Shown piece by piece: positions 7,716 through 30,289 of a stretch of 64,000 nt of DNA. The DNA lies in the sequence record OK272470.1. One strand, written 5' to 3'. This DNA is from Escherichia phage JLBYU50. Each line of letters begins with the position of its first letter. Positions within the stretch are counted from its first letter, which is position 1. The notes below the pieces were generated by a model. It did no database searches and was not told where the DNA came from. It worked only from the letters and a program-made list of their open reading frames with translations. A program made the translations under genes and the position numbers.

Positions 7716-7744
7716 TTGACAAACGCAAAAAAGTATGCTACCCT
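7716..7744 (+). promoter_or_regulatory. sigma70-like promoter (TTGACA-N17-TGcTACCCT)
   Basis: perfect -35 hexamer at 7716-7721, extended -10 at 7736-7744. Confidence 0.4.
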
Positions 7745-7925
7745 AACCCCCGAAAAACGCCGAGCGCAGCGAGGGGGTGTTATCTAATCTTGTGATACAT
7801 GATCTAACAGACAACTTAGTAGTCTACATATAGCACTATGTTATGTCTATAATACTAACATACATGCTCTATACTAACAATAGATTCTTTATTAATTTTA
7901 TTATTAATTAAATAATAAATATCTA

Positions 7926-7954
7926 TTGACTTTAGATCTATCTGTATGTAGAGT
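7926..7954 (+). promoter_or_regulatory. sigma70-like promoter upstream of Prs-like gene
   Basis: TTGACT at 7926-7931, 17-nt spacer, TAGAGT at 7949-7954; followed by AAGGAG RBS. Confidence 0.5.
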
Positions 7955-7993
7955 AGAGAACATAAAGTCCTAACTCAACTAAGGAGATAAACA

Positions 7994-8887
7994 ATGAAAG
8001 TTAGTATTCTGCATGGTGTTGACTGTTATGTTACTGATGTAGACGTTAAAGTCTTTACATTCTCTGGTGGAGAACAGCATGTTCAACTAGATACGAATCT
8101 ATCAGGTTTCAATCATGCTACAGACAGAATCTTACTCACTTTAGAAGTAAGATCTGCTAAAGACTTGATGACTTTGGTTATGACTAAGAATGCATTGGAC
8201 AATATGCTATATCATAAACCATATTGTGTTGATTTGCTCATGTTGTATGTGCCGTATGCACGACAAGACAGAGTGTGTGAGCCTGGGGAAGCATTCGGAG
8301 TTAAAGCCTTTGCTTCTATAATTAATTCATTAAATTTCTCACGTGTTATCGTTGCTGATCCACATAGTGATGTTACGCCAGCAGTGTTTGACAGACTCTG
8401 TGTAATACCTCAAGAAGAGATTGCTTACGAAACTTTAAAGTGGAAGTTACGTATGGAGAATTTTGCTCTTGTTAGTCCTGATGGTGGTGCTCTTAAGAAA
8501 ATATTTAAATTATCTAAGAAAATGTCTTTAGATGTGTTCTGTGCAGAGAAGGTTAGAGATACTGCAACAGGTGCTATTGTTCGTACAGACATTTCTGTAC
8601 AGGATTTCAATAAGCGTAACCTGATGATCGTAGATGATATCTGTGATGGTGGTAGAACTTTTATCGAATTGGCTAAAGTGCTACGTGCTCGTAACGCAGG
8701 TAAGATTGAGTTATATGTTACACACGGTATCTTTTCTAAAGGTCTTAAAGAGTTAAGTGAGCACTTTGACTGCATTCATTCTCTTAATGTGTGGGAAGAT
8801 AACATCCAAGAAGATTCCGGTGTTCTTGTTAAGAATCAGCCAGATTTGCAACAACAAATTGTATCTCCATACGTGTGGAATTTTTAA
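7994..8887 (+). CDS. ribose-phosphate pyrophosphokinase (Prs)-like protein; candidate PRPP or ADP-ribose pyrophosphokinase
   Basis: YVPYARQDR, VIVADPHS, VSPDGGAL and PRTase-type nucleotide loop LMIVDDICDGGRTF; strong RBS. Confidence 0.8.
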   Translation: MKVSILHGVDCYVTDVDVKVFTFSGGEQHVQLDTNLSGFNHATDRILLTLEVRSAKDLMTLVMTKNALDNMLYHKPYCVDLLMLYVPYARQDRVCEPGEAFGVKAFASIINSLNFSRVIVADPHSDVTPAVFDRLCVIPQEEIAYETLKWKLRMENFALVSPDGGALKKIFKLSKKMSLDVFCAEKVRDTATGAIVRTDISVQDFNKRNLMIVDDICDGGRTFIELAKVLRARNAGKIELYVTHGIFSKGLKELSEHFDCIHSLNVWEDNIQEDSGVLVKNQPDLQQQIVSPYVWNF

Positions 8888-8897
8888 ATAATAAGTG

Positions 8898-8926
8898 TTG
8901 ACAATAGGGAGTATGCTTAGTAAGAT
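8898..8926 (+). promoter_or_regulatory. sigma70-like promoter upstream of Nampt-family gene
   Basis: TTGACA 8898-8903, 17-nt spacer, TAAGAT 8921-8926. Confidence 0.5.
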
Positions 8927-8958
8927 ACTCCCACACTAACAAACAAGGAGACATAACT

Positions 8959-10692
8959 ATGAATATTTTTGCACCTTTTGCTACTGATTGGTATAAACCT
9001 GGTCACAAGCAGATGTACAACCAAAATACAAAACTCATTTTCTCTAATTTAACTCCTCGTAATGATAAAAACTTTGCACACTATGCAGATCGTGAAGCAC
9101 GTGGTGTGATTGTTTTAGGTATTCGTCGAGCAGTTACTGATGCTCTTGTAACTATGTGGGATGGCTTCTTTAAAATGTCTCGTAGTGCAGCAGTAAATAA
9201 ATTTTATCGTATGTCTAAGAATGCATTAGGTGCTTCTGCTCCTTCTGCTGAATGTTGGGGAGAATTGCACGATTTAGGTTATCTTCCGCTAGAAGTTCGA
9301 TCTCTGCCAGAAGGTGTTTTGTGTCCTATTGGTGTTCCTGTGTTTACTGTGCATAACACTTTAGAAAAATTCTTTTGGTTAACTAACTATGTGGAAACAC
9401 TCTTGTCAGATGAAACTTGGAAGACAATGACTAATGCCACAGCAGCTTTTCAGTATAAGCGTATCGCTATGGCGTATGCGATGGCAACGTGTGATAACAT
9501 TGATCACGTTAATTTCCAGTGTCATGATTTTAGTCTACGTGGCTTAAGCAATATCGAAGATGGTTATAAGAGTGGTATCGCTCATTTGGCATCTTTCACA
9601 GGAACAGATAATATTCTGGCTATTGAAACTGTGCATGATTACTATGGTATTGATTATGATCAATTTGTTGCAGGTTCTATTCCGGCAACAGAACATTCAG
9701 TAGCAACGACTAATATTGGAGCTATTGTTGAAGATCTGAAGAAACATTTCCCACATCTTAAAGATGATGTTGATGGGCTTCGTTATGTAGCAGAGAAAGA
9801 GTTTCTTCGCCGCTATATTGAAGAAATTGTTCCAGAAGGTTTTTGTTCATATGTAGCAGATTCTTATGATTACTGGGCTGTCTTGACTCGCATTCTGGTA
9901 GAATTGAAAGAGTCCATTATGTCACGAAATGGTCGTCTTGTTATTCGTCCAGATTCAGGAGATCCGGTTAAAGTTGTTGCAGGATACAATGTTGAATCTT
10001 TTGATAACTATGAAGACCTTTTAAATAATGGTATTGCGACAGCTACTGAAGTAGTTCATTTGGCTGATGTTAATAAGTATTACAATGTTCTTCAGGATTG
10101 TAGCGTTGCTGATTGTATTGATGAAACTTATGAGATTCCTTATTGTGAAGCAGTAGGTTCTATTCAAATCCTTTGGGAAGTGTTTGGCGGTACTATCAAT
10201 CGAAAAGGCTACAAGGTTCTTGATCAGCACATCGGTATGATTTATGGTGATTCTATTACTGTTGAACGAGAACACGAAATCTTACTCCGACTGAAGAAGA
10301 AAGGCTTTGCTGCTTCCAATATTGTATTTGGTGTTGGTAGTTATACTTATCAGTTCAATACACGAGATACTTTTGGTTTTGCTGTTAAAGCAACAGGTAG
10401 TATCATCGGTGAACACGAAATTTTGGTAAGTAAGGAGCCTAAAACTGATCCTGGTAAACGCTCTGCAAAAGGTTTTATTAAGGTTGTTAAGGATACAAAT
10501 GGTAAACTTTCTCTTGTGGATAATCTTTCTTTTAAAGATATTCAAGATGAAGACAATGAGTTAAAAGTTATCTTCAGGGATGGTACGGTTATTACACCAC
10601 AAGTAGAAGGACGTGATGAAACATTTACTGATATCCGCAACCGTGTTGATGTAGAGGTTCTTCGTACTATGGGAACCATCCAGGTTGACTAA
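8959..10692 (+). CDS. nicotinamide phosphoribosyltransferase (Nampt)-family protein
   Basis: block-by-block match to Nampt: ATDWYKPGHKQ, LPEGV..FTVHNT..FWLTNYVETLL, HDFSLRGLS, FTGTDN, PATEHSV, ADSYDYW, VIRPDSGDP, IVFGVGS..NTRD, DPGKRSAKG. Confidence 0.85.
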   Translation: MNIFAPFATDWYKPGHKQMYNQNTKLIFSNLTPRNDKNFAHYADREARGVIVLGIRRAVTDALVTMWDGFFKMSRSAAVNKFYRMSKNALGASAPSAECWGELHDLGYLPLEVRSLPEGVLCPIGVPVFTVHNTLEKFFWLTNYVETLLSDETWKTMTNATAAFQYKRIAMAYAMATCDNIDHVNFQCHDFSLRGLSNIEDGYKSGIAHLASFTGTDNILAIETVHDYYGIDYDQFVAGSIPATEHSVATTNIGAIVEDLKKHFPHLKDDVDGLRYVAEKEFLRRYIEEIVPEGFCSYVADSYDYWAVLTRILVELKESIMSRNGRLVIRPDSGDPVKVVAGYNVESFDNYEDLLNNGIATATEVVHLADVNKYYNVLQDCSVADCIDETYEIPYCEAVGSIQILWEVFGGTINRKGYKVLDQHIGMIYGDSITVEREHEILLRLKKKGFAASNIVFGVGSYTYQFNTRDTFGFAVKATGSIIGEHEILVSKEPKTDPGKRSAKGFIKVVKDTNGKLSLVDNLSFKDIQDEDNELKVIFRDGTVITPQVEGRDETFTDIRNRVDVEVLRTMGTIQVD

Positions 10693-10763
10693 ATAAAAAC
10701 TTCGTGATAAGATTAAGGTAAGGAGAGCCTGCAACTGCCCTGGATGGGCTTCACGAAGGATTT

Positions 10764-10985
10764 ATGAAACAACATAATTTTTATTTTCGTTGCCGAGCCT
10801 GTAACAGACACTTGACTAATCACTCCCGTAGAGACAGGAATGGTAATATTCAAGAGTCGGATCTATGCTCGATTTGTACAAGTTTGGCATTCGACGACAG
10901 TCCCGAAAGGGTTTATCAACATCAAAGTGTAACTGATCTTCTTCTAAATTACACAGCACCAGAGGAGGAATTAGATTTCACATAA
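10764..10985 (+). CDS. small Cys-rich (zinc-ribbon-like) protein
   Basis: ORF track; CRACNRH...CSIC four-Cys arrangement; GAAGGA RBS. Confidence 0.45.
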   Translation: MKQHNFYFRCRACNRHLTNHSRRDRNGNIQESDLCSICTSLAFDDSPERVYQHQSVTDLLLNYTAPEEELDFT

Positions 10986-10998
10986 TTAAGGAAACAGT

Positions 10999-11109
10999 AT
11001 GTCTACAGAAATTATTTTTGGCTTATCTGTTTTTATTGCTATTGTATCTTTTGTATGCGGTTATACACTAGGTTACAGATCAAGAAAAAATATTGTAAAA
11101 ACTAGTTGA
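10999..11109 (+). CDS. possible 36-aa single-pass membrane peptide
   Basis: below ORF-track cut-off; AAGGAAACAGT-ATG; hydrophobic core IIFGLSVFIAIVSFVCGYTLGY then basic tail. Confidence 0.25.
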   Translation: MSTEIIFGLSVFIAIVSFVCGYTLGYRSRKNIVKTS

Positions 11110-11135
11110 CAACATAGCTAGTTATTTGCTAAGAT
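11106..11135 (+). promoter_or_regulatory. sigma70-like promoter
   Basis: TTGACA 11106-11111, 18-nt spacer, TAAGAT 11130-11135; upstream of 11165 CDS. Confidence 0.45.
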
Positions 11136-11164
11136 AAGCACAAGTTAAACAAAAGGAGAAAACT

Positions 11165-11431
11165 ATGACAGAAAATACTTATGGTAAAGAATTGATTGAG
11201 AAGCACGTATTGATTGATAATAAAGGTGGAGCAATCTTTCTTTTTGATCCTGAATCAGTTCTTACTGAAAACGAAAATGGTAGCGTTAGCCTTAAAACAG
11301 AAAGTTTGGTAATTGACTTCCTTGCTCTTCTGGATGAAATGGGGCTTCCTCACGAAGAAGAAGCAGCTATTGCTTTGATTACAGTTCTTCTGGAGAAACG
11401 CGAAGCTGGTGAAATGACCCAGTATGCTTAA
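11165..11431 (+). CDS. hypothetical protein (88 aa)
   Basis: ORF track; AAAAGGAG RBS. Confidence 0.5.
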   Translation: MTENTYGKELIEKHVLIDNKGGAIFLFDPESVLTENENGSVSLKTESLVIDFLALLDEMGLPHEEEAAIALITVLLEKREAGEMTQYA

Positions 11432-11438
11432 TATTCAA

Positions 11439-11514
11439 GGTTCCATAGCTCACTGACGAGAGCGCACACCTCATAAGTGTCGAGGGCAGGGATTGTAACC
11501 CTGGGGAACCACCA
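11439..11514 (+). tRNA. tRNA with CAT anticodon (Met/Ile-type), non-canonical D- and T-loops
   Basis: complete cloverleaf: acceptor GGTTCCA/GGGAACC, D-stem GCTC/GAGC, anticodon loop CTCATAA, T-stem CAGGG/CCCTG, encoded ACCA; T-loop is ATTGTAA rather than TTCRANY. Confidence 0.45.
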
Positions 11515-11545
11515 TTTAAAAGGAGGTGCTATGCATCTCCTATAT

Positions 11546-11631
11546 GCAAGTGTGGTGGAATTGGTGATACACATTGTGCTTAAAACGCAACGCTTAAATG
11601 CTTGAGGGTTCGAATCCCTCCACTTGCACCA
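11546..11631 (+). tRNA. tRNA-Leu (anticodon TAA)
   Basis: acceptor GCAAGTG/CACTTGC, anticodon loop CTTAAAA, long variable arm, T-loop GGTTCGAATCC, ACCA encoded. Confidence 0.8.
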
Positions 11632-11647
11632 ACACCTAAAAAAATAT

Positions 11648-11677
11648 CTTGACATTTACTTAGTTTTTTGTTATAGT
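11648..11677 (+). promoter_or_regulatory. sigma70-like promoter inside tRNA array
   Basis: TTGACA 11648-11653, 18-nt spacer, TATAGT 11672-11677. Confidence 0.45.
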
Positions 11678-11687
11678 TACTATGAAA

Positions 11688-11769
11688 ACGGGGTGTATCT
11701 CACCTGACTTCTAATCAGGCGTTAACCGAGTAATTGGAGTATGCAGGTTCGAATCCTGTCACCCCGGCC
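11688..11769 (+). tRNA. atypical tRNA-like gene, anticodon hairpin reads TCT (Arg-type)
   Basis: perfect acceptor CGGGGTG/CACCCCG, canonical T-arm GCAGG-TTCGAAT-CCTGT, GCCA 3' end, perfect hairpin CCTGA-CTTCTAA-TCAGG; no conventional D-arm fits between acceptor and this hairpin. Confidence 0.4.
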
Positions 11770-11787
11770 AAAAAGTTTTAAAAACTA

Positions 11788-11817
11788 CTTGACAAGCAAG
11801 ATAGTTTTATGTTAGAT
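11788..11817 (+). promoter_or_regulatory. sigma70-like promoter inside tRNA array
   Basis: TTGACA 11788-11793, 18-nt spacer, TAGATT 11812-11817. Confidence 0.4.
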
Positions 11818-11833
11818 TTAAAGTATAATAACT

Positions 11834-11923
11834 GGAAGGTAGGGCGCAGCGGTGCGCAACCAGGTTTGAACCCTGGCCCATTGTAGCGATACGGTGATGG
11901 TTCGACTCCATTATCTTCCTCCA
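11834..11923 (+). tRNA. tRNA-Ser (anticodon TGA)
   Basis: acceptor GGAAGGT/ATCTTCC, anticodon stem CCAGG/CCTGG with loop TTTGAAC, long variable arm, T-loop TTCGACT, TCCA 3' end. Confidence 0.7.
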
Positions 11924-11929
11924 AATTCA

Positions 11930-12094
11930 ATGAGTGATTTTATGAATTATAAAACTATTGGACAGGTTGTTACCGGAGTTAAGATTGTAAATAATAAAGT
12001 TGTTTATGAGTATTCTAATCTTCAACAATCTGAAGATGGTAAGAATATTCGTATGGTAAAAGAAGAACAAAAAGATTCCGGTTGTTTTGAATAA
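11930..12094 (+). CDS. possible small protein (54 aa) between tRNA genes
   Basis: ORF-track ORF 11894..12094 starts inside the tRNA-Ser; first ATG after the tRNA is at 11930; no clear RBS. Confidence 0.25.
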   Translation: MSDFMNYKTIGQVVTGVKIVNNKVVYEYSNLQQSEDGKNIRMVKEEQKDSGCFE

Positions 12095-12102
12095 TTAAAA
12101 AC

Positions 12103-12188
12103 GGTAGATTGGTGAAATGGTAGCCACAACAGTTTGCTAAACTGTCGTCGGAAACGGCGTGTAGGTTCAAGTCCTACATCTACCGCCA
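12103..12188 (+). tRNA. tRNA-Ser (anticodon GCT)
   Basis: acceptor GGTAGAT/ATCTACC, anticodon stem ACAGT/ACTGT loop TTGCTAA, long variable arm, T-arm TAGG-TTCAAGT-CCTA, GCCA. Confidence 0.8.
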
Positions 12189-12315
12189 AGTTATCTTTAA
12201 TGTAGCTTGTCATCTTACTTTAATAGAGTAAACTTTCGGCAGATGGCCCCCCACCATCTTACCGATATCCCATAGTCAAGTGCCGCAAACACTGGCTATT
12301 TTAAAGATAATTTAT

Positions 12316-12391
12316 ACATCGTTAGCTTAGTTGGTAGAGCAAGGGGCTTTTAACTCCAAGGTCGAAGGTTCGAATCCTTCACGATGTACCA
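12316..12391 (+). tRNA. tRNA-Lys (anticodon TTT)
   Basis: acceptor ACATCGT/ACGATGT, D-arm TAGCTTAGTTGGTAGAGC, anticodon loop CTTTTAA, T-loop GGTTCGAATCC, ACCA. Confidence 0.75.
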
Positions 12392-12396
12392 AACAC

Positions 12397-12483
12397 GTAG
12401 GTATCGCATAGCGGCAATTGCTGGAGACTGTAAATCTCTTGCCCTTCGGGGCTTCGTTGGTTCGAGTCCAACTACCTGCACCA
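12397..12483 (+). tRNA. tRNA-Tyr (anticodon GTA)
   Basis: acceptor GTAGGTA/TACCTGC, anticodon loop CTGTAAA, long variable arm, T-arm GTTGG-TTCGAGT-CCAAC, ACCA. Confidence 0.75.
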
Positions 12484-12490
12484 AATTAAA

Positions 12491-12575
12491 GATGGATTGG
12501 CCTAGTGGTTGGGCGACGGACTGTTAATCCGTGAACGAAAGTTCTAGCAAGGTTCAAATCCTTGATCCATCGCCA
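12491..12575 (+). tRNA. tRNA with GTT anticodon (Asn-type) carrying a long variable arm
   Basis: acceptor GATGGAT/ATCCATC, anticodon stem ACGGA/TCCGT loop CTGTTAA, 15-nt variable hairpin GAAC-GAAA-GTTC, T-loop GGTTCAAATCC, GCCA. Confidence 0.55.
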
Positions 12576-12580
12576 AATAG

Positions 12581-12646
12581 TGCTTGTAGAGTTAATAGAA
12601 ACCTCTAGAATTTTCTAGAATTGTAGGTATCAAATCCTACCAAGCA
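12581..12646 (+). other. degenerate tRNA-like remnant
   Basis: acceptor-like TGCTTG/CAAGCA and T-arm-like GTAGG-TATCAAAT-CCTAC, but no foldable anticodon arm and no CCA. Confidence 0.25.
12604..12620. repeat. tandem direct repeat TCTAGAA-TTT-TCTAGAA
   Basis: two copies of TCTAGAA (each containing palindromic TCTAGA) separated by TTT, read directly at 12604-12620. Confidence 0.7.
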
Positions 12647-12654
12647 AATATTTT

Positions 12655-12729
12655 GCTCCTATCGTATAACGGCTATTACGGTTGCCTTGTAAGCAACTTA
12701 TCAGGGTTCGAGTCCTTGTGGGAGCACCA
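12655..12729 (+). tRNA. tRNA-Thr (anticodon TGT)
   Basis: acceptor GCTCCTA/TGGGAGC, anticodon stem GTTGC/GCAAC loop CTTGTAA, T-loop GGGTTCGAGTCC, ACCA. Confidence 0.8.
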
Positions 12730-12751
12730 ATTTAACTCTAAAGGAGTGTAT

Positions 12752-13075
12752 GTGACAGAAAAAGAGTTAGAGGAATATTTTAATATCAATGTTTTCGATG
12801 GTTTTGATGATATTGAAGATGTTGAAAGATATTATGAAGTAGAGTTAGATAAGGATAACATTGTAATTCTTTCTGCAACTTATGATTGTGCATATTATGA
12901 AGGCGAATCTCACGTTTATTTTTATGATATGAAAACATCTTTGTTTTATGAAGTACACGCATATCATTGTTCTTGTTATGGCTTAGAAGGTCAGTGGGAA
13001 CCTGAAGAAATAGGTGATTTGGACTTTACTATTGCATATCTAAACAGACGTGGTGCATCTACTATTTTAAAATAA
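12752..13075 (+). CDS. hypothetical protein (107 aa)
   Basis: ORF-track ORF 12653..13075 starts inside tRNA-Thr; start re-set to in-frame GTG at 12752, 5 nt after AAGGAG. Confidence 0.4.
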   Translation: MTEKELEEYFNINVFDGFDDIEDVERYYEVELDKDNIVILSATYDCAYYEGESHVYFYDMKTSLFYEVHAYHCSCYGLEGQWEPEEIGDLDFTIAYLNRRGASTILK

Positions 13076-13089
13076 ATATCAAAAGCCTC

Positions 13090-13119
13090 TTGACAAAGGG
13101 GCTAATAATATGTTAGAGT
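13090..13119 (+). promoter_or_regulatory. sigma70-like promoter inside tRNA array
   Basis: TTGACA 13090-13095, 18-nt spacer, TAGAGT 13114-13119. Confidence 0.4.
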
Positions 13120-13130
13120 AATATTGTTAA

Positions 13131-13205
13131 GCGGGTATAGTGTTAATGGTAGCATATGAGGTTTCCACCCTCCAGGTGCAGGTTCAAGTCCTGTTACTCG
13201 CTCCA
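13131..13205 (+). tRNA. tRNA-Gly (anticodon TCC)
   Basis: acceptor GCGGGTA/TACTCGC, anticodon loop TTTCCAC, T-arm GCAGG-TTCAAGT-CCTGT, TCCA. Confidence 0.75.
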
Positions 13206-13304
13206 AGATTATTTAAATGGAATCGCTAGAGAAAATTTCTCTTTTCGCTCATGGTTTTCTCCTTCAAACTCTAGCGGTTCTTTTTAAGTGATTTTTAGTT
13301 TTAT

Positions 13305-13379
13305 TGGAGATTAGCCTAGTGGGAAGGCAACGGCCTTTGAAGTCGTGATGACTAGGTTCGATTCCTAGATCTCCAGCCA
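13305..13379 (+). tRNA. tRNA-Gln (anticodon TTG)
   Basis: acceptor TGGAGAT/ATCTCCA, D-arm GCCTAGTGGGAAGGC, anticodon loop CTTTGAA, T-arm CTAGG-TTCGATT-CCTAG, GCCA. Confidence 0.8.
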
Positions 13380-13386
13380 ATATTTA

Positions 13387-13462
13387 CAGTGCGTAGCGCA
13401 GTTGGTAGCGTGGGAGCCTTGGACGCTTCAGGTCGCAGGTTCGAGTCCTGCCGCACTGACCA
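13387..13462 (+). tRNA. tRNA-Pro (anticodon TGG)
   Basis: acceptor CAGTGCG/CGCACTG, D-arm GCGCAGTTGGTAGCGT, anticodon loop CTTGGAC, T-arm GCAGG-TTCGAGT-CCTGC, ACCA. Confidence 0.8.
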
Positions 13463-13467
13463 AATTT

Positions 13468-13542
13468 GCAGAGATAGCTGAGACGGATTAGTGCTACCCT
13501 GAAAAGGTAGAAAGGATGGATCGTTACCATCTCTCTGCACCA
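13468..13542 (+). tRNA. tRNA-Phe (anticodon GAA)
   Basis: acceptor GCAGAGA/TCTCTGC, anticodon stem CTACC/GGTAG loop CTGAAAA, T-stem GATGG/CCATC (loop ATCGTTA), ACCA. Confidence 0.7.
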
Positions 13543-13617
13543 AATATCACCATCCAAGGAGTAGACTTGGTTAACTGTCAATAGCACATTGAGGCTTCTT
13601 ACAGTGGTGTATTTTAT

Positions 13618-13702
13618 GGCTAAGTGGTGGAATGGTATACACGATACGCTTAGAACGTATTGCCCCAAGGGATTGTGAGTTCGAGTCTCACCTTAGCTAC
13701 CA
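13618..13702 (+). tRNA. tRNA-Leu (anticodon TAG)
   Basis: acceptor GGCTAAG/CTTAGCT, anticodon stem ATACG/CGTAT loop CTTAGAA, long variable arm, T-arm GTGAG-TTCGAGT-CTCAC, ACCA. Confidence 0.8.
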
Positions 13703-13780
13703 TATCTAAGAGATATCATAGGGTTTGCAACGGATATCTACCGTCCTGTTAAGGATACCACGCCAAGACGGGTTATAAAG

Positions 13781-13856
13781 GGTTAGCCATTGATAGTGTG
13801 AAGCTGGCGTTTCGAGTGCTTTCATAAGGCATTGCGAGAAGAGTTCGATCCTCTTA
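13781..13856 (+). tRNA. tRNA with CAT anticodon (Met or Ile-lysidine type)
   Basis: perfect acceptor TGATAGT/ACTATCA, anticodon loop TTCATAA, T-arm AAGAG-TTCGATC-CTCTT, ACCA. Confidence 0.65.
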
Positions 13857-13871
13857 CTATCAACCAAATTA

Positions 13872-13950
13872 TTACAGATTGTGCGGGATAGAGGAGTCTG
13901 GTCGTCCTCGCCAGTTTCATATGCTGGAGATCATCGGTTCGAATCCGATT
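13872..13950 (+). tRNA. tRNA with CAT anticodon (Met or Ile-lysidine type), 1:72 mismatch
   Basis: acceptor TGCGGGA/TCCCGCC with unpaired first position, anticodon loop TTCATAT, T-arm ATCGG-TTCGAAT-CCGAT, TCCA. Confidence 0.6.
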
Positions 13951-13994
13951 CCCGCCTCCAATAAATACCTCCCTTCTGGTGTAATGATTAAGTT

Positions 13995-14091
13995 ACATTG
14001 ACACTTCAAGGAACTCATAGCCGGGTAGATTTAAAAGAGTATGGTACTCAATATGGCTCCAAACCATAGATCAGGGGGTTCGATTCCTCAC
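13995..14091 (+). tRNA. tRNA-like element with Trp-type anticodon arm (CCA); 5' half non-canonical
   Basis: perfect anticodon arm TATGG-CTCCAAA-CCATA, T-loop GGTTCGATTCC, GCCA 3' end; no 7-bp acceptor partner at the expected distance, only a 5-bp CAAGG/CCTTG pairing about 40 nt upstream. Confidence 0.35.
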
Positions 14092-14106
14092 CTTGCTGCC
14101 AATTAT

Positions 14107-14182
14107 TGTGGTATCGTACAGATGGTTAGTACACTCGACCGATAATCGAGAAACAACGGTTCGACTCCGTTTACCACGACCA
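14107..14182 (+). tRNA. tRNA-Ile (anticodon GAT)
   Basis: acceptor TGTGGTA/TACCACG, D-arm GTAC-AGATGGTTA-GTAC, anticodon stem CTCGA/TCGAG loop CCGATAA, T-arm AACGG-TTCGACT-CCGTT, ACCA. Confidence 0.75.
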
Positions 14183-14293
14183 AACTCCGTGCCAGCGGTG
14201 TCTTCGAAGAACAAGCCTAGTTCCTTCTGAGATGGAGGGGTGCGACTCCTTAACGCACAATATACTACTACTAAATACTTATCAGGAGATATC

Positions 14294-14563
14294 ATGTATA
14301 CTTTAAAAGTAATTCGCAAGTTTCCTCAAGAAGAGGAAGTAAGAATTTATAACACTGTACCATTCGTAGTAAATGAAGAAGAATTCTTTTATTGCTTAGA
14401 AGATGAAGTAATTATTCAATATCATTGGGAAGGTTACGACAGACAAGATGGTGTTGTAGCTTCTGTGCTTGCTGGTGATAGAGTGTTATTCATTCACAAG
14501 ACTGAATCAGCATATCTAATGAATGATAAAGGACAAACTGTTAAAGTAATTAACAGACCATAA
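14294..14563 (+). CDS. hypothetical protein (89 aa)
   Basis: ORF-track frame; start re-set to ATG 14294 preceded by AGGAGA RBS. Confidence 0.5.
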   Translation: MYTLKVIRKFPQEEEVRIYNTVPFVVNEEEFFYCLEDEVIIQYHWEGYDRQDGVVASVLAGDRVLFIHKTESAYLMNDKGQTVKVINRP

Positions 14564-14574
14564 AGAATTTTATA

Positions 14575-14607
14575 AAAGCCTCCTTTTTGGAGGTTTTTTA
14601 TTATCTA
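14575..14607 (+). terminator. rho-independent terminator
   Basis: GCCTCC-TTTTT-GGAGG stem-loop followed by TTTTTTATTAT. Confidence 0.6.
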
Positions 14608-14669
14608 TAAAATAAAGATCTTTACAAAACGTATAAAATATGTTATCCTTAAGTAAGGAGGTGCATATT

Positions 14670-14960
14670 ATGCCTAAATTGAAAAGAGGTCGAGGTAGAC
14701 CTACAGCCGAAATGCAACAGATTTATGCTATGGATGCTGCACAGGCGCAAGTAAAAGAAATTTTTGCTGGTCGTTATTTAGATGCTATGCGTTACATTGC
14801 AGATCTTGTTGTAGATGAAAAGGCTTCTGCTAATATTAAGTTGACTGCTTCTAAGATCATCAAAGAACAAGTAGAAGAATGGCTGGAAGAACATTATGAA
14901 TCTATGGAAGAAGAAGATATTCTTCCAGAAAATTCTCCCCCTCAAAAAATCGTTATCTAA
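14670..14960 (+). CDS. small protein with AT-hook-like KRGRGRP motif (possible DNA-binding protein)
   Basis: ORF-track frame; start re-set to ATG 14670 after AAGGAGG RBS; PKLKRGRGRPTAE near N-terminus, acidic C-terminus. Confidence 0.5.
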   Translation: MPKLKRGRGRPTAEMQQIYAMDAAQAQVKEIFAGRYLDAMRYIADLVVDEKASANIKLTASKIIKEQVEEWLEEHYESMEEEDILPENSPPQKIVI

Positions 14961-14972
14961 TTCTCCTCTCTT

Positions 14973-15040
14973 GGGAACTTTGTTCCCCCTCTCCTTGTTA
15001 ATTAACACCCCTTTCCGAAAGGTTAGGGGGTTTTTTATTT
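14973..15040 (+). terminator. tandem stem-loops ending in a U-tract
   Basis: GGGAAC-TTT-GTTCCC (14973-14987) then CACCCC...GGGGG hairpin followed by TTTTTTATTTT (15008-15040). Confidence 0.55.
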
Positions 15041-15098
15041 TATACCTATTGCTTTTATATATGTTTTTATGATATGATTAATACAGGAGGACTATAAA

Positions 15099-15272
15099 AT
15101 GAGAAACTATGTAGCTAAACACGATTTTAATAGGGCTTCTTATCACAGAGATAAGAAGAACAGTTATTCGCGTAAATGGGATCTGGAGGAAGAGTTAGAC
15201 TATGATTACAGAAGAACAATGGAAGGAGATTTTGGAGAATGCACAACCGATGGTAGTGAAGAAGATAGTTAA
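15099..15272 (+). CDS. small hydrophilic protein (57 aa)
   Basis: below ORF-track cut-off; ACAGGAGG RBS 8 nt upstream of ATG. Confidence 0.35.
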   Translation: MRNYVAKHDFNRASYHRDKKNSYSRKWDLEEELDYDYRRTMEGDFGECTTDGSEEDS

Positions 15273-15974: not shown

Positions 15975-15982
15975 GAGGAGAT

Positions 15983-18100: not shown

Positions 18101-18164
18101 AGCATTATATGTCTACCCCTTCAATTGGGTAGAGTCATTTGTCCAGCATTAGCGGAGGTTCTGA

Positions 18165-19764: not shown

Positions 19765-19793
19765 TTGACAAATAAGCAAATATCCTGTAGACT
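19765..19793 (+). promoter_or_regulatory. sigma70-like promoter
   Basis: TTGACA 19765-19770, 17-nt spacer, TAGACT 19788-19793. Confidence 0.4.
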
Positions 19794-19829
19794 AAGATTT
19801 ATGGGATATTTGTTTTTATGAGGAACCGT

Positions 19830-20309
19830 ATGGAACTTAATAAAGACACGCTTTGGGAACTCTATAAAACGTTCAGTGGAACGAAAGAGAAAAAGCAAAC
19901 CCAACAAAATTCCACTCCAGAAGAAACACCTGCTACTATCGTCAAACAAAATAAATTTGACGAAGAAAAAATGCAAGTGATTGAAGTGATGTATTGTCCA
20001 CCAGAACACGATGACCTCCACGGTGAACGTATGTCTGAAATTGAAATCAGAAAGATGGTTGACAACTTCAACGCAAATATTACTAACGTAAGTGGTAATC
20101 TTGGTCATATCAAAAACACCGATAAATTTAAACCAGTTAAGGCTTGGGTTAATGAAGTCGATTGTTATATTGGTGACGAGTTTGTTGTTGAAGGAACACC
20201 ACTCGTTAAAATTCAATTCTATGATCCTGAACTGTATGAAGCAAGAAAGAACGGCGTTCTTAAAGGTTTAAGTATTGGTGCAGTAGGATGTAAAGTGAAG
20301 AAGGATTAA
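19830..20309 (+). CDS. head morphogenesis protein (possible prohead protease)
   Basis: ORF-track frame; start re-set to ATG 19830 with GAGGA RBS; sits between portal and scaffold-like gene. Confidence 0.35.
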   Translation: MELNKDTLWELYKTFSGTKEKKQTQQNSTPEETPATIVKQNKFDEEKMQVIEVMYCPPEHDDLHGERMSEIEIRKMVDNFNANITNVSGNLGHIKNTDKFKPVKAWVNEVDCYIGDEFVVEGTPLVKIQFYDPELYEARKNGVLKGLSIGAVGCKVKKD

Positions 20310-22912: not shown

Positions 22913-22946
22913 ATGTGTCCCACTAACAATGAGAGGAAACACGATT

Positions 22947-23297: not shown

Positions 23298-23309
23298 CAG
23301 GAGGTTTAC

Positions 23310-24346: not shown

Positions 24347-24390
24347 CTTGCAATAAGTCTGTTTTTGATGTATACTAAAAAGGAGATACA

Positions 24391-24807
24391 ATGCTATTAG
24401 ACCAATTTACTCTCCTTGATCTAACAACGTATCAGGGTCGTAAAAGAACCTATGTTCAAGATCCTGATTCGCCAATTTCCAATATGGGTAATACAGTAGC
24501 ATACGAAGACTTTACAATAGAGGCTGCAAGTTTGCAACCAATATCAGGTAGAACACTTCAAGCACTGCCAGAAGGATACAGATCTAAGGCACAATATAGC
24601 TTCTGGACAAAAACAGAAATCAGAGGCATCCAGCAAGGATCAGATCAATTATCTGACCAAATACTAATAGATGGACAATGGTTTTCCATTTATTCTTTGA
24701 AAGACTGGACAAGAACATCTTTCTTAAGACACACACATTGTGTTGCTATTCTAGATGACCAGAATAACACCTACTCATATTCTGAGGAGGGTGGTAATTT
24801 TGGCTAA
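24391..24807 (+). CDS. hypothetical neck/tail protein (138 aa)
   Basis: ORF track; AAAAGGAG RBS. Confidence 0.4.
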   Translation: MLLDQFTLLDLTTYQGRKRTYVQDPDSPISNMGNTVAYEDFTIEAASLQPISGRTLQALPEGYRSKAQYSFWTKTEIRGIQQGSDQLSDQILIDGQWFSIYSLKDWTRTSFLRHTHCVAILDDQNNTYSYSEEGGNFG

Positions 24808-25456: not shown

Positions 25457-25476
25457 AGTTTCTAACAGGAGCATAA

Positions 25477-26883: not shown

Positions 26884-26891
26884 TTAAAAGC

Positions 26892-26912
26892 AGCGGGGGC
26901 AACCCCGCTTAT
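26892..26912 (+). terminator. stem-loop AGCGGGG-GCAA-CCCCGCT (weak U-tract)
   Basis: perfect 7-bp GC stem after sheath gene; downstream tract is TATATG, so more likely attenuator or stability element. Confidence 0.3.
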
Positions 26913-26941
26913 ATGAAAAGTAGTATAAAAGGAGATCCACT

Positions 26942-27421: not shown

Positions 27422-27424
27422 CAA

Positions 27425-27450
27425 AAAGGGCAGAAATGCCCTTTATTTTT
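27425..27450 (+). terminator. rho-independent terminator after tube gene
   Basis: AAAGGGCA-GAAA-TGCCCTTT followed by ATTTTTA. Confidence 0.6.
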
Positions 27451-27464
27451 AAAGAGAGGAAATA

Positions 27465-27947: not shown

Positions 27948-28222
27948 GTCCGGCAATTAAATCAGCAATTGAAATTGCCTCACAAACCCTTAGCTTGACA
28001 TGGTATGAAGTAATTCTTTGTAAGGTAATTAAGAATACCTCCGAAACCTTGTCCTCGTTAGATAATTACGGTGTAGATTATCTACTTAAAATTTATGAAT
28101 ATTTAACATTTGAAGACTATGTACAAGATCTTCACGTTAAAGATGCGGATATTAAACGTGGTCAACAGAGAACAATAAGAGAACTGGATACGGCTATGAA
28201 AAAATTAATTCCAGATTCATAA
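27465..28222 (+). CDS. tail assembly chaperone, predicted -1 frameshift fusion product
   Basis: joins 27465..27884 to -1 frame 27884..28222 (no stops in the shifted frame across 27878-27995). Confidence 0.4.
27878..27884 (+). other. slippery heptamer T_TTT_TTC (candidate -1 programmed frameshift site)
   Basis: X_XXY_YYZ heptamer in the zero frame of the chaperone gene; the -1 frame is open from here to 28222. Confidence 0.45.
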
Positions 28223-28241
28223 GTAATACGGAGGATTACCC

Positions 28242-30221
28242 TTGTTAGAAATTAACACTTCCAAGATTAAGAATACAGTAACGTTTACTGTAGATAAAGA
28301 CAGTTTAAAAAATACTAAAGACGCAATTAAAAACCTTAAAACTTTTACAGAATCTATTGAACCATCTTTAAATATGACTAAAATGCGTCGTCAGTTTAAA
28401 AGTATGGAAGAGTATGCTAAAAGAATAAGGCAGCAAATGTCAGGTCTTGGCGGCGGTAATCCTCCACCAATCCCACCAACCGGAGGTTCAAGTGGTGGTG
28501 GAAAAGGAGGAAGTGGCAGAGGTGGTTCTGGATCTTCTGGAGGACGTAAGACACCGGAGGAAAGAGCCGCAGAAGCCGCCGCTAAACGTGCAGCACTTGC
28601 TAATATGAAGCAAGACGATTTTAGTTTTAAAGCTATGCCTTTTACAAAAGCAGACAGCAGAATTCTAGAAAAATCTAAAAAGATTGTAGAAGAAACTCTT
28701 GAACTTTATCGTAAAGGCGTGATTACTAGCCAACAAATGAACAATACTTTGGCTAGACAGTTAGAAGAACTACGCAGATCTCATAGAGAGAAGAATGCAC
28801 AACTTCTTGATGAAGAGAGAGCTAGACGTAGAATTGCCCGTCTGCAAGAAGCAGAAGATAAAAGAAGACAGCGTGTTCGAGAAAGAGAAAGAAAGGAGTT
28901 CGAACGTCAGCAAAGGAGAGAAAAAGAAGCAAGACAGCGAGATAGACAACGTAAGCTATCTGGTGTAGGTAATGCTGCTATTGCTCTTAACCCTGCTATG
29001 TTTGGTGCTGCTCTTTTAGGTGCTGGTTTATATCAAGGCATAAGCAAAATAGCTGAAAGTATCACAACTGCGGCAGAACGTATTAATATGGTTAGTAAAG
29101 GTGGTCAGAACGTACAGGTAAACCCTAATGCAATTTTAACAATGCGTACTTGGGGTGAGATGAACGGTGTAGACTCTGCCAGCATTATTAAAGCCATTGA
29201 CAATATTAAAGACGTTCGTGAACGTTTAGGTAATACTGTACTCCACTCTGAATTTGATGAAAAATCAGGTAAATGGAAAGGTGGAGATAGTGGTATTAAT
29301 GAAATCATGAACCAATTTGGTTGGTCGAAAGAAGATGTTGCTAAATTCCAGAACAGACCTTTAGACTTTGTTCAAGCACTTGTTAATGAAGGTCAAAAAA
29401 GAGGAATGAACTCCGCGCAAATTGGTCGTTTGATGGAAAACCTTGGTGATGACTTAATGCACTACCAACGTATGTTTTTGGATAACGGTAAAGAGTACAT
29501 GAAAGTCTTGGATATGTTAAAAAATTCAGGAGCCACTCTTAACGATGAAAACATCAAAGCAGCACAAGATTTTGTTAAGCTAAGAGCACAAATTAGTGCA
29601 GCAGGAGAAGGTTTTACCAATAACTTACTTATAGGATTTATGGATGGTTTAAAATCTGCACCAGATTTTGCAGAGAATATGAAAACTTTCCAAGAAGCTG
29701 CTCGTGGTCTTGGTGAAATGTCTGGTAGTATTGTAAGTAGCCTTGCAAAAATTGCGAAATATTTCCTTGATTTTTCAAATAAGGTTGGGCCAAAAAACAA
29801 TACTAAAGAAGCTGTAAGAGATTATTATAATGGTACGCAGTATGGGTACGATGCACAGGTTGGTGGTAATCCTTGGGCTTATTGGCCTATTGGAAGAGAT
29901 CAACATCTACCTGAAAATCAACCTTTAGGTAACTTTGATAGTAGTTTCTTAACTAGTGCCTTAAACCCAAGTGCTTCTAGTATCGGTTACAATAGACCTG
30001 ATTTAACAGCATCTATGCTAACACCACGCCAAGGTGTTCCAGTACCGTTAAGTGTAGAGAATACGGTTGTTATCCCAGACAACGCATTCCAGATTAATGT
30101 TATTCCAGATGGCTATGGTTTTAGTAATTATCTAGATGCGACAATGAATACCAGTTTTAGTAACTTCTCACAAGGCTTAACTCTTCAGTTAAGCAGTGGA
30201 CAATCTTCTACTGGTGGTTAA
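28242..30221 (+). CDS. tail tape measure protein
   Basis: 659-aa ORF after chaperone pair; Gly-rich tract GGGNPPPIPPTGGSSGGGKGGSGRGGSGSSGG, Arg/Glu-rich coiled coil; TTG start after ACGGAGGA. Confidence 0.65.
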   Translation: MLEINTSKIKNTVTFTVDKDSLKNTKDAIKNLKTFTESIEPSLNMTKMRRQFKSMEEYAKRIRQQMSGLGGGNPPPIPPTGGSSGGGKGGSGRGGSGSSGGRKTPEERAAEAAAKRAALANMKQDDFSFKAMPFTKADSRILEKSKKIVEETLELYRKGVITSQQMNNTLARQLEELRRSHREKNAQLLDEERARRRIARLQEAEDKRRQRVRERERKEFERQQRREKEARQRDRQRKLSGVGNAAIALNPAMFGAALLGAGLYQGISKIAESITTAAERINMVSKGGQNVQVNPNAILTMRTWGEMNGVDSASIIKAIDNIKDVRERLGNTVLHSEFDEKSGKWKGGDSGINEIMNQFGWSKEDVAKFQNRPLDFVQALVNEGQKRGMNSAQIGRLMENLGDDLMHYQRMFLDNGKEYMKVLDMLKNSGATLNDENIKAAQDFVKLRAQISAAGEGFTNNLLIGFMDGLKSAPDFAENMKTFQEAARGLGEMSGSIVSSLAKIAKYFLDFSNKVGPKNNTKEAVRDYYNGTQYGYDAQVGGNPWAYWPIGRDQHLPENQPLGNFDSSFLTSALNPSASSIGYNRPDLTASMLTPRQGVPVPLSVENTVVIPDNAFQINVIPDGYGFSNYLDATMNTSFSNFSQGLTLQLSSGQSSTGG

Positions 30222-30226
30222 TGCAT

Positions 30227-30256
30227 AAAGCCTCGCTTCGGCGGGGCTTTTTATTT
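30227..30256 (+). terminator. rho-independent terminator after tape measure gene
   Basis: AAAGCCTCGC-TTCG-GCGGGGCTTT followed by TTATTT. Confidence 0.65.
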
Positions 30257-30259
30257 GTC

Positions 30260-30289
30260 TTGACAAAGAGTTGTTTTTCGTGATAAAAT
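30260..30289 (+). promoter_or_regulatory. sigma70-like promoter with extended -10
   Basis: TTGACA 30260-30265, 18-nt spacer, TGaTAAAAT 30281-30289. Confidence 0.5.

What the first reader, a model, noticed from the sequence alone, without database searches (positions are those of the whole stretch)
7716..30289. Recurrent strong promoter family TTGACA-N17/18-TA(A/G)nnT, often with TAAGAT, including inside the tRNA array
Seen: at least ten near-consensus -35 hexamers with a compatible -10 at 17-18 nt (7716, 7926, 8898, 11106, 11648, 11788, 13090, 18071, 19765, 30260), plus one on the minus strand (56334). Several share the -10 TAAGAT. Inference: host sigma70-dependent transcription of early and auxiliary genes; portal/head and baseplate promoters of this type suggest host RNA polymerase is used throughout with no phage-specific late sigma signal obvious.
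Basis: seen in the sequence. Interest (0 to 1): 0.35.

Follow-up and report, generated by a model that had tools for sequence, protein, structure and literature searches.

The report
Host-type promoters in a phi92-like phage
The repeated TTGACA…TAnnnT sites are real, evolutionarily conserved promoters of the ordinary E. coli sigma-70 type that split a phi92-like phage's tRNA, NAD-salvage, head and baseplate genes into short transcription units; similar sets are already described for related phages.

Summary
Observation confirmed. The window is 98.6% identical to coliphage phi92. All eleven listed sites exist (two are off by one base; 7926 is TTGACT). TTGACA-N17/18-TAnnnT occurs 15 times, and 10 lie in the 3.6% of strand-specific sequence that is intergenic and sense (expected 0.54). 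The version with a TGn extended -10 occurs 9 times against 0.23 in shuffles. Loose sigma-70-like matches are not enriched.

I count 14 members: the 11 listed plus 10685, 14621 and 59718(-). Each sits directly upstream of a gene or tRNA, and several abut or overlap terminator hairpins. Orthologous promoters persist in relatives down to 41-42% portal identity while their spacers diverge. They are best read as UP/-35/TGn/-10 promoters for host RNA polymerase, as already reported for rV5 and Certrevirus phages.

No alternative late motif is enriched. However, timing cannot be read from sequence. The likely early region, which lies outside the window in phi92, uses a different design: 16-17 bp spacer, rarely TGn, and a conserved leader hairpin. 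The window family is therefore probably not the early class. Interest is low. It is a new member of a known kind.

The parts
7716..7744 (+). Promoter TTGACA-N17-TACCCT with TGc, in the divergent intergenic region. It is followed by a conserved CGAGCGCAGCGAG box, and no ORF follows before the next promoter.
   Evidence: related copies in phi92 and L020
7926..7954 (+). Promoter TTGACT-N17-TAGAGT, ending 40 nt upstream of the ribose-phosphate pyrophosphokinase gene (7994).
   Evidence: orthologue at L020 2825
8898..8926 (+). Promoter TTGACA-N17-TAAGAT before the nicotinamide phosphoribosyltransferase gene (8959). The -10 lies inside the inverted repeat GGGAGTAT/ATACTCCC.
   Evidence: (hairpin -12.9 kcal/mol, z -4.1)
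10685..10713 (+). Promoter TTGACT-N17-(TGa)TAAGAT overlapping the end of the NAMPT gene, before ORF 10764-10985.
   Evidence: orthologues at L020 3077 and L016 26
11106..11135 (+). Promoter TTGACA-N18-(TGc)TAAGAT before ORF 11165-11431 and tRNA-Met/Leu.
   Evidence: shares 45-nt similarity with 11770 and 13071 (family D6)
11649..11677 (+). Promoter TTGACA-N17-(TGt)TATAGT, ending 11 nt upstream of a tRNA-like gene.
11689..11767 (+). tRNA-like gene driven by the 11649 promoter. ARAGORN missed it and phi92 does not annotate it.
   Evidence: Rfam tRNA, 38.6 bits against a gathering score of 29; absent
11789..11818 (+). Promoter TTGACA-N18-(TGt)TAGATT, ending 15 nt upstream of tRNA-Ser (11834).
13090..13119 (+). 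Promoter TTGACA-N18-(TGt)TAGAGT, ending 11 nt upstream of tRNA-Gly (13131). The -35 lies in the loop of the hairpin AGCCTCTT/AAGGGGCT.
14574..14598 (+). Intrinsic terminator directly upstream of the 14621 promoter, forming a terminator-promoter cassette.
14621..14649 (+). Promoter TTTACA-N17-(TGt)TATCCT before the gene starting at 14670 (phi92 gp115).
   Evidence: orthologues in L014, L020, L016 and L018
18071..18100 (+). Promoter TTGACA-N18-(TGt)TAAAGT between the terminase stop (18067) and the portal gene (18165).
   Evidence: orthologues in nine lineages including rV5-like WalterGehring; equals rV5 'P064'
18112..18133 (+). Hairpin at the start of the portal transcript. The structure is kept in nine lineages with unrelated stem sequences.
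19765..19793 (+). Promoter TTGACA-N17-TAGACT before the gene at 19818 (probable prohead protease) and the head module.
   Evidence: positional orthologues in EF1-1, KpS11, WalterGehring, GAP31, POP18, PAc and L012-L020
19774..19815 (+). 18-bp RNA hairpin whose 3' arm runs into a U-run (UUUGUUUUUA). It contains the spacer and -10 of the 19765 promoter and is the probable terminator of portal transcripts.
   Evidence: -17.8 kcal/mol, z -6.0; 95% of cells paired in 8 lineages, G.U pairs retained
24348..24376 (+). Weaker candidate promoter TTGCAA-N17-TATACT before the gene at 24391. The predicted start falls inside the ribosome-binding site.
   Evidence: conserved at L014 16188
30227..30250 (+). 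Intrinsic terminator after the tape-measure gene. Its T-run abuts the next promoter.
   Evidence: conserved in EF1-1
30260..30289 (+). Promoter TTGACA-N18-(TGa)TAAAAT before the gene at 30337 and the baseplate module.
   Evidence: EF1-1 orthologue TTGACA-N18-(TGt)TACAAT
30292..30318 (+). Hairpin at the start of the baseplate-module transcript.
   Evidence: -12.3 kcal/mol, z -4.6
56305..56334 (-). Promoter TTGACA-N18-(TGt)TATTAT. Its -10 ends only 10 nt before the ATG of ORF 55896-56294 (SSB gene next), so the mRNA would be nearly leaderless.
   Evidence: EF1-1 orthologue with 8 nt and no ribosome-binding site
59690..59718 (-). Promoter TTTACA-N17-(TGg)TACAGT fused to the preceding terminator GGGGCGAAAGCCCC.

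Best explanation
These are at least 14 genuine promoters for the host sigma-70 RNA polymerase holoenzyme in a phi92-like (Justusliebigvirus) coliphage.

Each promoter combines several elements:
- a consensus or near-consensus -35 hexamer (TTGACA);
- a 17-18 bp A/T-rich spacer;
- usually a TGn extended -10;
- a deliberately degenerate -10 (TAnnnT);
- often an A-tract 3-5 nt upstream of the -35.

This is the 'UP/-35/TGn/-10' design known from strong phage promoters (inferred from anatomy).

Each sits in a short gap immediately upstream of a gene or tRNA on the coding strand. Together they cut the rightward block into short units: ribose-phosphate pyrophosphokinase; NAMPT; two small ORFs; three tRNA groups; the gp115-lysis-terminase unit; portal; head module; baseplate module.

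Several are packaged with RNA hairpins:
- a terminator just upstream (14621, 30260, 59718);
- a terminator that physically contains the promoter (19765);
- a hairpin at the 5' end of the new transcript (18071, 30260).

Upstream transcripts would therefore stop while new ones start and are possibly stabilised.

Shown here: sequence anatomy, placement, enrichment and conservation. Inferred: recognition by sigma-70 holoenzyme, the start sites, and the roles of the hairpins. Timing (early, middle or late) is not determinable from sequence.
For: - Enrichment and placement. Ten of 15 strict hits are intergenic and sense against 0.54 expected. The TGn version gives 9 against 0.23 in shuffles.
- Shared anatomy: alignment of 14 members; consensus TTGACAAa...T.TG.TA.a.T; TGn in 11 of 14, spacers 17-18.
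- Geometry: the -10 ends 11-15 nt before mature tRNA 5' ends and 20-65 nt before start codons.
- Conservation with spacer turnover. The portal promoter is kept in nine lineages. The protease promoter is kept in Phapecoctavirus, Vequintavirus, Mydovirus, Seunavirus, Pectobacterium and Aeromonas phages at 41-42% portal identity. The 10685, 14621, 24348, 30260 and 56334 orthologues are also kept.
- No competing upstream motif.
- Hairpins.
- Literature: rV5 has 33 sigma-70-like promoters across its genome, 11 with an extended -10. Its 'late' MEME motif TGGTAAAATA is itself an extended -10, and its P064 is the orthologue of the portal promoter (PMC3606486). Certrevirus phages share AAAA(N3)TGTTGAC(N19)TATAAT (PMC7344957). 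T4 early promoters are described as UP/-35/TGn/-10 (PMC2988021).
Against: - There are no transcription start or expression data for this phage group in the library searched.
- The -10 hexamers match TATAAT at only 3-5 of 6 positions.
- Requiring TAnnnT in the search makes A-11/T-7 partly circular within the window, though orthologues keep them.
- The upstream A/T content (69%) is barely above that of all non-coding DNA (66%), so a UP element is not demonstrated.
- Perfect TTGACA with a compatible -10 also occurs inside genes (20059, 37965), so a match alone is not sufficient.
- At 56334, 14621 and 24348 the predicted start falls in or after the ribosome-binding site.
- Loose sigma-70-like sites are not enriched.
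Confidence: 0.8

Rival explanations
1. The window family is a separate, non-early (middle or late) promoter class. Its TGn and 17-18 bp spacer would let it keep working, or only start working, after a phage factor alters sigma-70 region 4 or alpha-CTD function. It would then not simply be a constitutive host-type promoter.
For: - The putative early region of phi92 (outside the window) has 18 TTGACA promoters with a different design: 16-17 bp spacer, TGn in 4 of 18, and a conserved CACATAGGGCGG...CCGCC leader hairpin. The differences are significant (Fisher p = 0.0036 for TGn and 0.0004 for the 16-bp spacer).
- The rV5 authors' MEME motif for late genes is an extended -10.
- TGn/-10 promoters are immune to T4 AsiA in vitro (PMC2988021).
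- rV5 encodes an Srd-like protein.
Against: - Window members upstream of tRNAs and NAD-salvage genes, which are typical early or middle functions, look the same as those upstream of portal, head and baseplate genes.
- All keep a consensus -35, which a region-4 antagonist would make useless.
- No such factor was identified here.
- The phi92 comparison rests on gene size and layout, not on expression data.
Confidence: 0.25
2. The sites are mainly mobile terminator-promoter cassettes like the PeSLs of T4-like phages. Their repeated sequence would serve as recombination points for swapping accessory genes, with promoter activity secondary.
For: - A stem-loop lies directly upstream of, or overlaps, 5 of the 14 members.
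- Four members share 38-45 nt of 62-76% similarity (families D6 and D8).
- In IMG/VR locus L020, the orthologues of the 7716/7926 promoter pair are followed by an unrelated small ORF instead of the two NAD-salvage genes. Each of those genes is bracketed by family members in the window.
- The PeSL definition is in PMC4122927.
Against: - Most members share only the functional promoter elements.
- The promoters before portal, protease and baseplate genes sit in the conserved structural core and are positionally stable across subfamilies. That fits selection for transcription, not mobility.
- Only one indel association was seen.
Confidence: 0.15
3. The sites are chance matches to TTGACA/TAnnnT in AT-rich intergenic DNA.
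For: - The window is 62% A+T and its non-coding DNA is 66% A+T.
- Loose promoter-like sites occur at chance frequency.
Against: - The strict motif is 3-40 times over-represented.
- It is almost exclusively intergenic and sense.
- TTGACA is otherwise under-represented: 45 against 58.5 +/- 7.4.
- The hexamers are conserved in relatives while spacers change.
Confidence: 0.02
4. The inverted repeats around some -10 or -35 elements (8898, 13090, 19765) are operators for a phage DNA-binding regulator, which would make these repressible promoters.
For: - Inverted repeats overlap the core promoter at three sites.
- phi92 annotates several small putative transcription regulators.
Against: - The three repeats have unrelated sequences, so there is no common operator.
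- The 19765 repeat keeps G.U-type pairs in all eight lineages and runs into a U-run, which fits an RNA terminator rather than a DNA palindrome.
Confidence: 0.05

Closest known systems
Predicted sigma-70-like promoters of coliphage rV5 (Kropinski et al. 2013, PMC3606486, Table S4)
   Same: - TTGACA-N15-18-TAnnnT sites are spread over early, tRNA and structural regions, and 11 of 33 have an extended -10.
- The authors drew the same inference that the host holoenzyme may serve throughout.
- rV5 P064 and its hairpin t064ABC are the positional orthologues of the window's portal promoter and leader hairpin.
   Different: - It is a different subfamily (portal about 41% identical).
- rV5 late-gene sites often have weaker -35 elements (for example TTGCCA) and were listed as a separate 'late' motif, TGGTAAAATA. 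The exact rV5 word (searched as TGGTAAAAT) is absent from the sense strand of the window.
- Neither set has been tested experimentally.
T4 early 'uber' UP/-35/TGn/-10 promoters (PMC2988021)
   Same: They combine an A/T-rich upstream region, a good -35, TGn and a -10 in one promoter. They are used by a lytic coliphage that has no polymerase of its own.
   Different: - T4 early promoters have a near-consensus -10 and drive only early genes.
- T4 late genes use TATAAATA with gp55, gp33 and gp45. Here the same design also precedes portal, head and baseplate genes, and TATAAATA is not enriched.
Certrevirus putative early promoter AAAA(N3)TGTTGAC(N19)TATAAT (PMC7344957)
   Same: It has an A-tract a few bases upstream of TTGAC and occurs in the same wider rV5-like phage group. 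Six of the 14 window members have AAAA 3-5 nt upstream of the -35.
   Different: In Certrevirus the sites are concentrated in the small-ORF early region and in the DNA-metabolism region, and were not reported before structural genes.
PeSL composite terminator/promoter cassettes of T4-like phages (PMC2839356, PMC4122927)
   Same: The layout is stem-loop, then an A/T-rich stretch, then a sigma-70-like promoter, then the ribosome-binding site of the next gene. The window sites at 14621, 30260 and 59718 have this layout. Accessory genes are bracketed by cassettes.
   Different: Only a minority of members have the upstream stem-loop, sequence similarity between copies is modest, several lie in the conserved structural core, and the phage is not T4-like.

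Membership tests
E. coli sigma-70 promoters of the -35 plus extended -10 type | -35 hexamer close to TTGACA | tested here: met
   Ten of 14 are perfect and the other four (TTGACT x2, TTTACA x2) match 5 of 6.
E. coli sigma-70 promoters of the -35 plus extended -10 type | Spacer of 17 +/- 1 bp between the hexamers | tested here: met
   Eight members have 17 bp and six have 18 bp.
E. coli sigma-70 promoters of the -35 plus extended -10 type | -10 hexamer with T-12, A-11 and T-7 | tested here: met
   All 14 have it. This is partly circular because the search required it, but the orthologues in relatives keep it.
E. coli sigma-70 promoters of the -35 plus extended -10 type | TGn at -15 to -13 | tested here: met
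   Present in 11 of 14. Composite motif: 9 against 0.23 in shuffles.
E. coli sigma-70 promoters of the -35 plus extended -10 type | A/T-rich UP element at -40 to -60 | tested here: inconclusive
   Mean A+T upstream is 69% against 66% for all non-coding DNA. An AAAA tract lies 3-5 nt upstream of the -35 in 6 of 14.
E. coli sigma-70 promoters of the -35 plus extended -10 type | Placed upstream of a gene, in sense orientation, and conserved in relatives | tested here: met
E. coli sigma-70 promoters of the -35 plus extended -10 type | Transcription starts 6-9 nt after the -10 and depends on sigma-70 holoenzyme | not testable with these tools
   Needs 5'-end mapping or in vitro transcription. No such data were found.
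PeSL terminator/promoter cassettes | Stem-loop immediately upstream of the promoter | tested here: inconclusive
   Present at 14621, 30260 and 59718. It overlaps the promoter at 13090 and 19765 and is absent at the other nine.
PeSL terminator/promoter cassettes | Copies similar enough to be found as dispersed repeats | tested here: inconclusive
   Only 11087/11770/13071 (62-76% over 45 nt) and 11787/13088/18069 (66-74% over 38 nt) are found as repeats.
PeSL terminator/promoter cassettes | Association with gene gain, loss or replacement between close relatives | tested here: inconclusive
   One case: L020 has a different small ORF where the window has the two NAD-salvage genes. Not examined systematically.
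T4-type late promoters | TATAAATA upstream of late genes | tested here: not met
   There is one sense-strand occurrence in the rightward late block, inside a gene (20947), and no enrichment.
T4-type late promoters | Phage gp55, gp33 and gp45 homologues | not tested
   No homology search was run here. None is named in the phi92 annotation, and rV5 is reported to lack them.

The most novel reading that the evidence does not exclude
This phage lineage, which has no polymerase or sigma factor of its own, may time its genes with two architecturally distinct sets of sigma-70-type promoters. One set is the early cassettes: 16-17 bp spacer, no TGn, and a fixed leader hairpin. The other is the window's set: TGn, 17-18 bp spacer, used for tRNA, metabolic, head and baseplate genes. 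A phage factor or promoter-proximal RNA hairpins (a terminator-embedded promoter, 5' stem-loops) would do the discriminating. Late genes would then be expressed from full consensus -35 promoters without any late sigma factor.
Probability: 0.2. Interest if true: 0.5.

Novelty: new member of a known kind. Interest (0 to 1): 0.2.

Why it matters
The result gives a usable transcription-unit map for phi92-like therapeutic coliphages. The GenBank record annotates ribosome-binding sites but no promoters. It also shows that the promoter before the head genes is of the host sigma-70 type across several phage subfamilies. That raises the still-open question of how these phages delay late genes without a late sigma factor. 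The promoters themselves are of a well-known type, and comparable sets have been published for rV5 and Certrevirus phages, so the finding does not change what is known.

Tried and rejected
- I looked for a second promoter type. K-mer enrichment (6-8-mers) in the 86 nt upstream of 88 genes gave only TTGACAA, terminator words and the tRNA T-arm. The other top words (GATTTAAA, GTATTGG, AATTAAAA, ATGTTAG) were scattered in coding sequence.
- T4 late TATAAATA and the rV5 motif TGGTAAAAT are not enriched.
- Rfam found nothing but tRNAs in 7400-15200.
- I looked for transcriptome or start-site studies of Stephanstirmvirinae or Vequintavirinae and found none in the library.
- The phi92 genome paper (J Virol 2012) is not held, so I cannot say whether it lists these promoters.
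- A pairwise alignment of the 7716 unit with a similar unit in phi92 showed only the short TGCTACCCTAA and CGAGCG..AGCGAG boxes in common.
- I considered a lambda-Q-like antitermination reading of the portal leader hairpin. I ranked it below a 5'-end stabiliser because the hairpin keeps a fixed distance from the -10 and has a poor U-tract in the window.

Full report
**Identity of the window.** Megablast shows the window is 98-99% identical to Escherichia phage phi92 and its relatives (Justusliebigvirus, Stephanstirmvirinae). It corresponds to phi92 positions from about 40,186 to about 104,000. Genes run leftward in 1-7584 (replication and nucleotide metabolism). They run rightward in 7994-53716: ribose-phosphate pyrophosphokinase, NAMPT, a tRNA array, lysis genes, terminase, portal, head, tail, baseplate and fibres. 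They run leftward again from 53752. The phi92 GenBank record annotates ribosome-binding sites but no promoters.

**Check of the observation.** Every listed site exists. The coordinates 11648 and 11788 are one base low, and 7926 has TTGACT rather than TTGACA. TTGACA-N16-19-TANNNT occurs 21 times against 6.1 +/- 2.4 in shuffles.
- I made a crude gene map with 4,618 non-coding bases (7.2%). On that map, 10 of the 15 TTGACA-N17/18-TANNNT hits are both intergenic and on the coding-sense strand. The expectation is 0.54 (binomial 1e-11).
- With a TGn extended -10 added, there are 9 hits against 0.23 +/- 0.51 in 200 dinucleotide shuffles. Eight of the nine are intergenic and sense.
- At a loose threshold, sigma-70-like sites are not enriched (65 against 62; 63 against 69).
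- TTGACA as a word is under-represented overall (45 against 58.5 +/- 7.4).

The signal therefore comes from a small set of strong sites, not from AT-richness. The remaining perfect TTGACA hits are intragenic or antisense. They lack the upstream A/T tract, and all but one lack TGn.

**Anatomy.** I count 14 members. They are the 11 listed plus 10685 (TTGACT-17-TAAGAT), 14621 (TTTACA-17-TATCCT) and 59718 on the minus strand (TTTACA-17-TACAGT). A weaker candidate lies at 24348.
- Aligned, the members give TTGACAAa, an A/T-rich spacer of 17 or 18 bp, TGn in 11 of 14, and a degenerate -10 that keeps only T-12, A-11 and T-7.
- Six have an AAAA tract 3-5 nt upstream of the -35. Overall upstream A+T is hardly above the non-coding background, so a UP element is plausible but not shown.
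- The -10 ends 11-15 nt before the mature 5' ends of tRNA-Ser, tRNA-Gly and a tRNA-like gene at 11689-11767. Rfam finds that gene at 38.6 bits, while ARAGORN and the phi92 annotation miss it.
- For protein genes the -10 ends 20-65 nt before the start codon.

**Conservation.** I fetched the portal neighbourhood from six annotated phages and twelve IMG/VR contigs.
- A -35/-10 promoter with the right spacing lies between terminase and portal in nine lineages. The spacers differ: TTGACA-18-TAAAGT, TTGACA-17-TACAAT or TATTAT, TTGACT-17-TATATT, and TTGCCA-17-TACAAT in the rV5-like phage.
- A promoter between portal and the next gene is found in every lineage examined. That includes Mydovirus, Seunavirus, a Pectobacterium phage and an Aeromonas phage, whose portals are only 41-42% identical. 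Nearly all of these have TGn.
- Orthologues of the 10685, 14621, 24348, 30260 and 56334 sites are also present.
- Hexamers and spacing are kept while spacers turn over, which indicates selection on promoter function.

**Association with RNA hairpins.**
- Terminators lie directly upstream of 14621, 30260 and 59718.
- The 19765 promoter lies inside an 18-bp hairpin whose 3' arm runs into a U-run (-17.8 kcal/mol, z -6.0). The pairing holds in 95% of cells across eight lineages, against 33-60% for slid controls. G.U pairs are retained and one pair shows a compensatory change. A transcript arriving from the portal gene would form the hairpin and stop. A transcript starting at 19765 contains only the 3' arm.
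- The portal leader carries a hairpin starting 7-12 nt after the -10 in nearly all of the nine lineages, with unrelated stem sequences. rV5 annotates the equivalent as terminator t064ABC.
- The baseplate leader also has a hairpin, at 30292-30318. The fixed distance from the -10 suggests a stem-loop at the 5' end of the mRNA. This role is inferred, not shown.

**Is there a different late signal?** K-mer enrichment in the upstream regions of all 88 genes gave only TTGACAA, terminator words and tRNA words. TATAAATA occurs once on the sense strand of the late block. The phi92 annotation lists no polymerase or sigma factor. However, only one family member serves the 23 kb from 30.3 to 53.7 kb, and timing cannot be read from sequence.

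**A qualification from outside the window.** The right-end region of phi92 (L023 34,300-42,430) is packed with small ORFs. It holds 18 TTGACA promoters of another design: 16-17 bp spacer, TGn in 4 of 18, and a transcript that begins with a conserved CACATAGGGCGG...CCGCC hairpin. The differences from the window family are significant (Fisher p = 0.0036 for TGn and 0.0004 for the 16-bp spacer). That leader motif is absent from the sense strand of the window. The window family is thus a distinct architectural class and probably not the immediate-early one. Whether the two classes differ in timing is untested.

**Comparison with what is known.**
- rV5 was reported to have 33 sigma-70-like promoters across its genome, 11 with an extended -10. 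The authors drew the same inference about the host polymerase. Their 'late' motif TGGTAAAATA is itself an extended -10, and their P064 is the portal-promoter orthologue (PMC3606486).
- Certrevirus phages share AAAA(N3)TGTTGAC(N19)TATAAT (PMC7344957).
- T4 early promoters are described as UP/-35/TGn/-10 (PMC2988021).
- The PeSL cassettes of T4-like phages have the stem-loop-then-promoter layout (PMC4122927). Only some window members fit this layout. Sequence similarity between copies is modest, and I saw just one associated gene replacement.

**Verdict.** The reading is ordinary for this phage group and largely anticipated in the literature. The temporal claims remain open.

Noticed in passing
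window 19774-19815: A conserved 18-bp RNA hairpin running into a U-run contains the spacer and -10 of the 19765 promoter. The terminator of the portal transcript and the promoter of the head module therefore share the same DNA.
   Followed up: yes
window 18112-18133 and 30292-30318: Hairpins lie at the very start of the portal and baseplate-module transcripts. The portal one is structurally conserved in nine lineages with unrelated stem sequences, and rV5 annotates its equivalent as a terminator.
   Followed up: partly
window 11689-11767: A tRNA-like gene (Rfam tRNA, 38.6 bits; anticodon loop CTTCTAA, short D region, long variable region) sits right after the 11649 promoter. ARAGORN did not call it and phi92 does not annotate it. 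A weaker tRNA-like remnant lies at about 14024-14100.
   Followed up: partly
window 7716-7780; L002 about 7995-7930 (-); L023 about 25843 (-); L020 2605-2670: A promoter sub-type has the unusual -10 TG(c/a)TACCCTaa, followed 12-15 nt later by the box CGAGCG(n)AGCGAG. It occurs at least three times in the phi92 genome and once in a Phapecoctavirus-like contig. In the window no ORF follows for about 180 nt. Its function is unknown.
   Followed up: partly
window 56294-56334 (-); L022 about 3728-3775 (-): The -10 of the 56334 promoter ends only 10 nt before the ATG of a 132-aa ORF upstream of the SSB gene. In EF1-1 the gap is 8 nt with no ribosome-binding site. This suggests a nearly leaderless mRNA.
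   Followed up: partly
L023 34300-42430 (phi92 138.3-146.4 kb, outside the window): Eighteen promoter cassettes precede small ORFs. Each has TTGACA, a 16-17 bp spacer, a -10, and then (in most) a conserved leader CACATAGGGCGG(G/C)AA...CCGCC that forms a hairpin. Two compensating stem variants occur.
   Followed up: partly
whole window: Outside the promoter family, TTGACA is under-represented: 45 in total against 58.5 +/- 7.4 in dinucleotide shuffles, with 11 of the 45 in intergenic sense positions. This may reflect avoidance of spurious -35 elements. It is not controlled for codon usage.
   Followed up: no
window 42025-42042 (-): A strong terminator-like hairpin with a T9 run lies on the minus strand, in a gap of the rightward late block. 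It would stop antisense transcription. On the plus strand it has an A-run before it and no T-run after it.
   Followed up: no
window 19818-20309: The gene after portal is annotated 'DNA methyltransferase' in phi92 and EF1-1 (it matches the C-terminal half of phrog_1530). It also matches head-maturation-protease families and is called prohead protease or peptidase in WalterGehring and KpS11. Its position between portal and scaffold favours a protease.
   Followed up: partly
window 7585-7993: The 409-bp divergent intergenic region has no ORF. Leftward promoter candidates there are much weaker: TTGTTA-17-(TGt)TAGTAT at 7857, TAGACA-17-TAGACT at 7826, and TTGTAA-17-TAAGGT at 7644.
   Followed up: partly
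window 13205-13305 versus L001 13212-13644: Compared with phi92, the window lacks about 340 bp between tRNA-Gly and tRNA-Gln, which in phi92 holds the rIII-like gp113. ARAGORN also calls a tRNA-Met at 13791-13866 that is not among the phi92 tRNA annotations.
   Followed up: no
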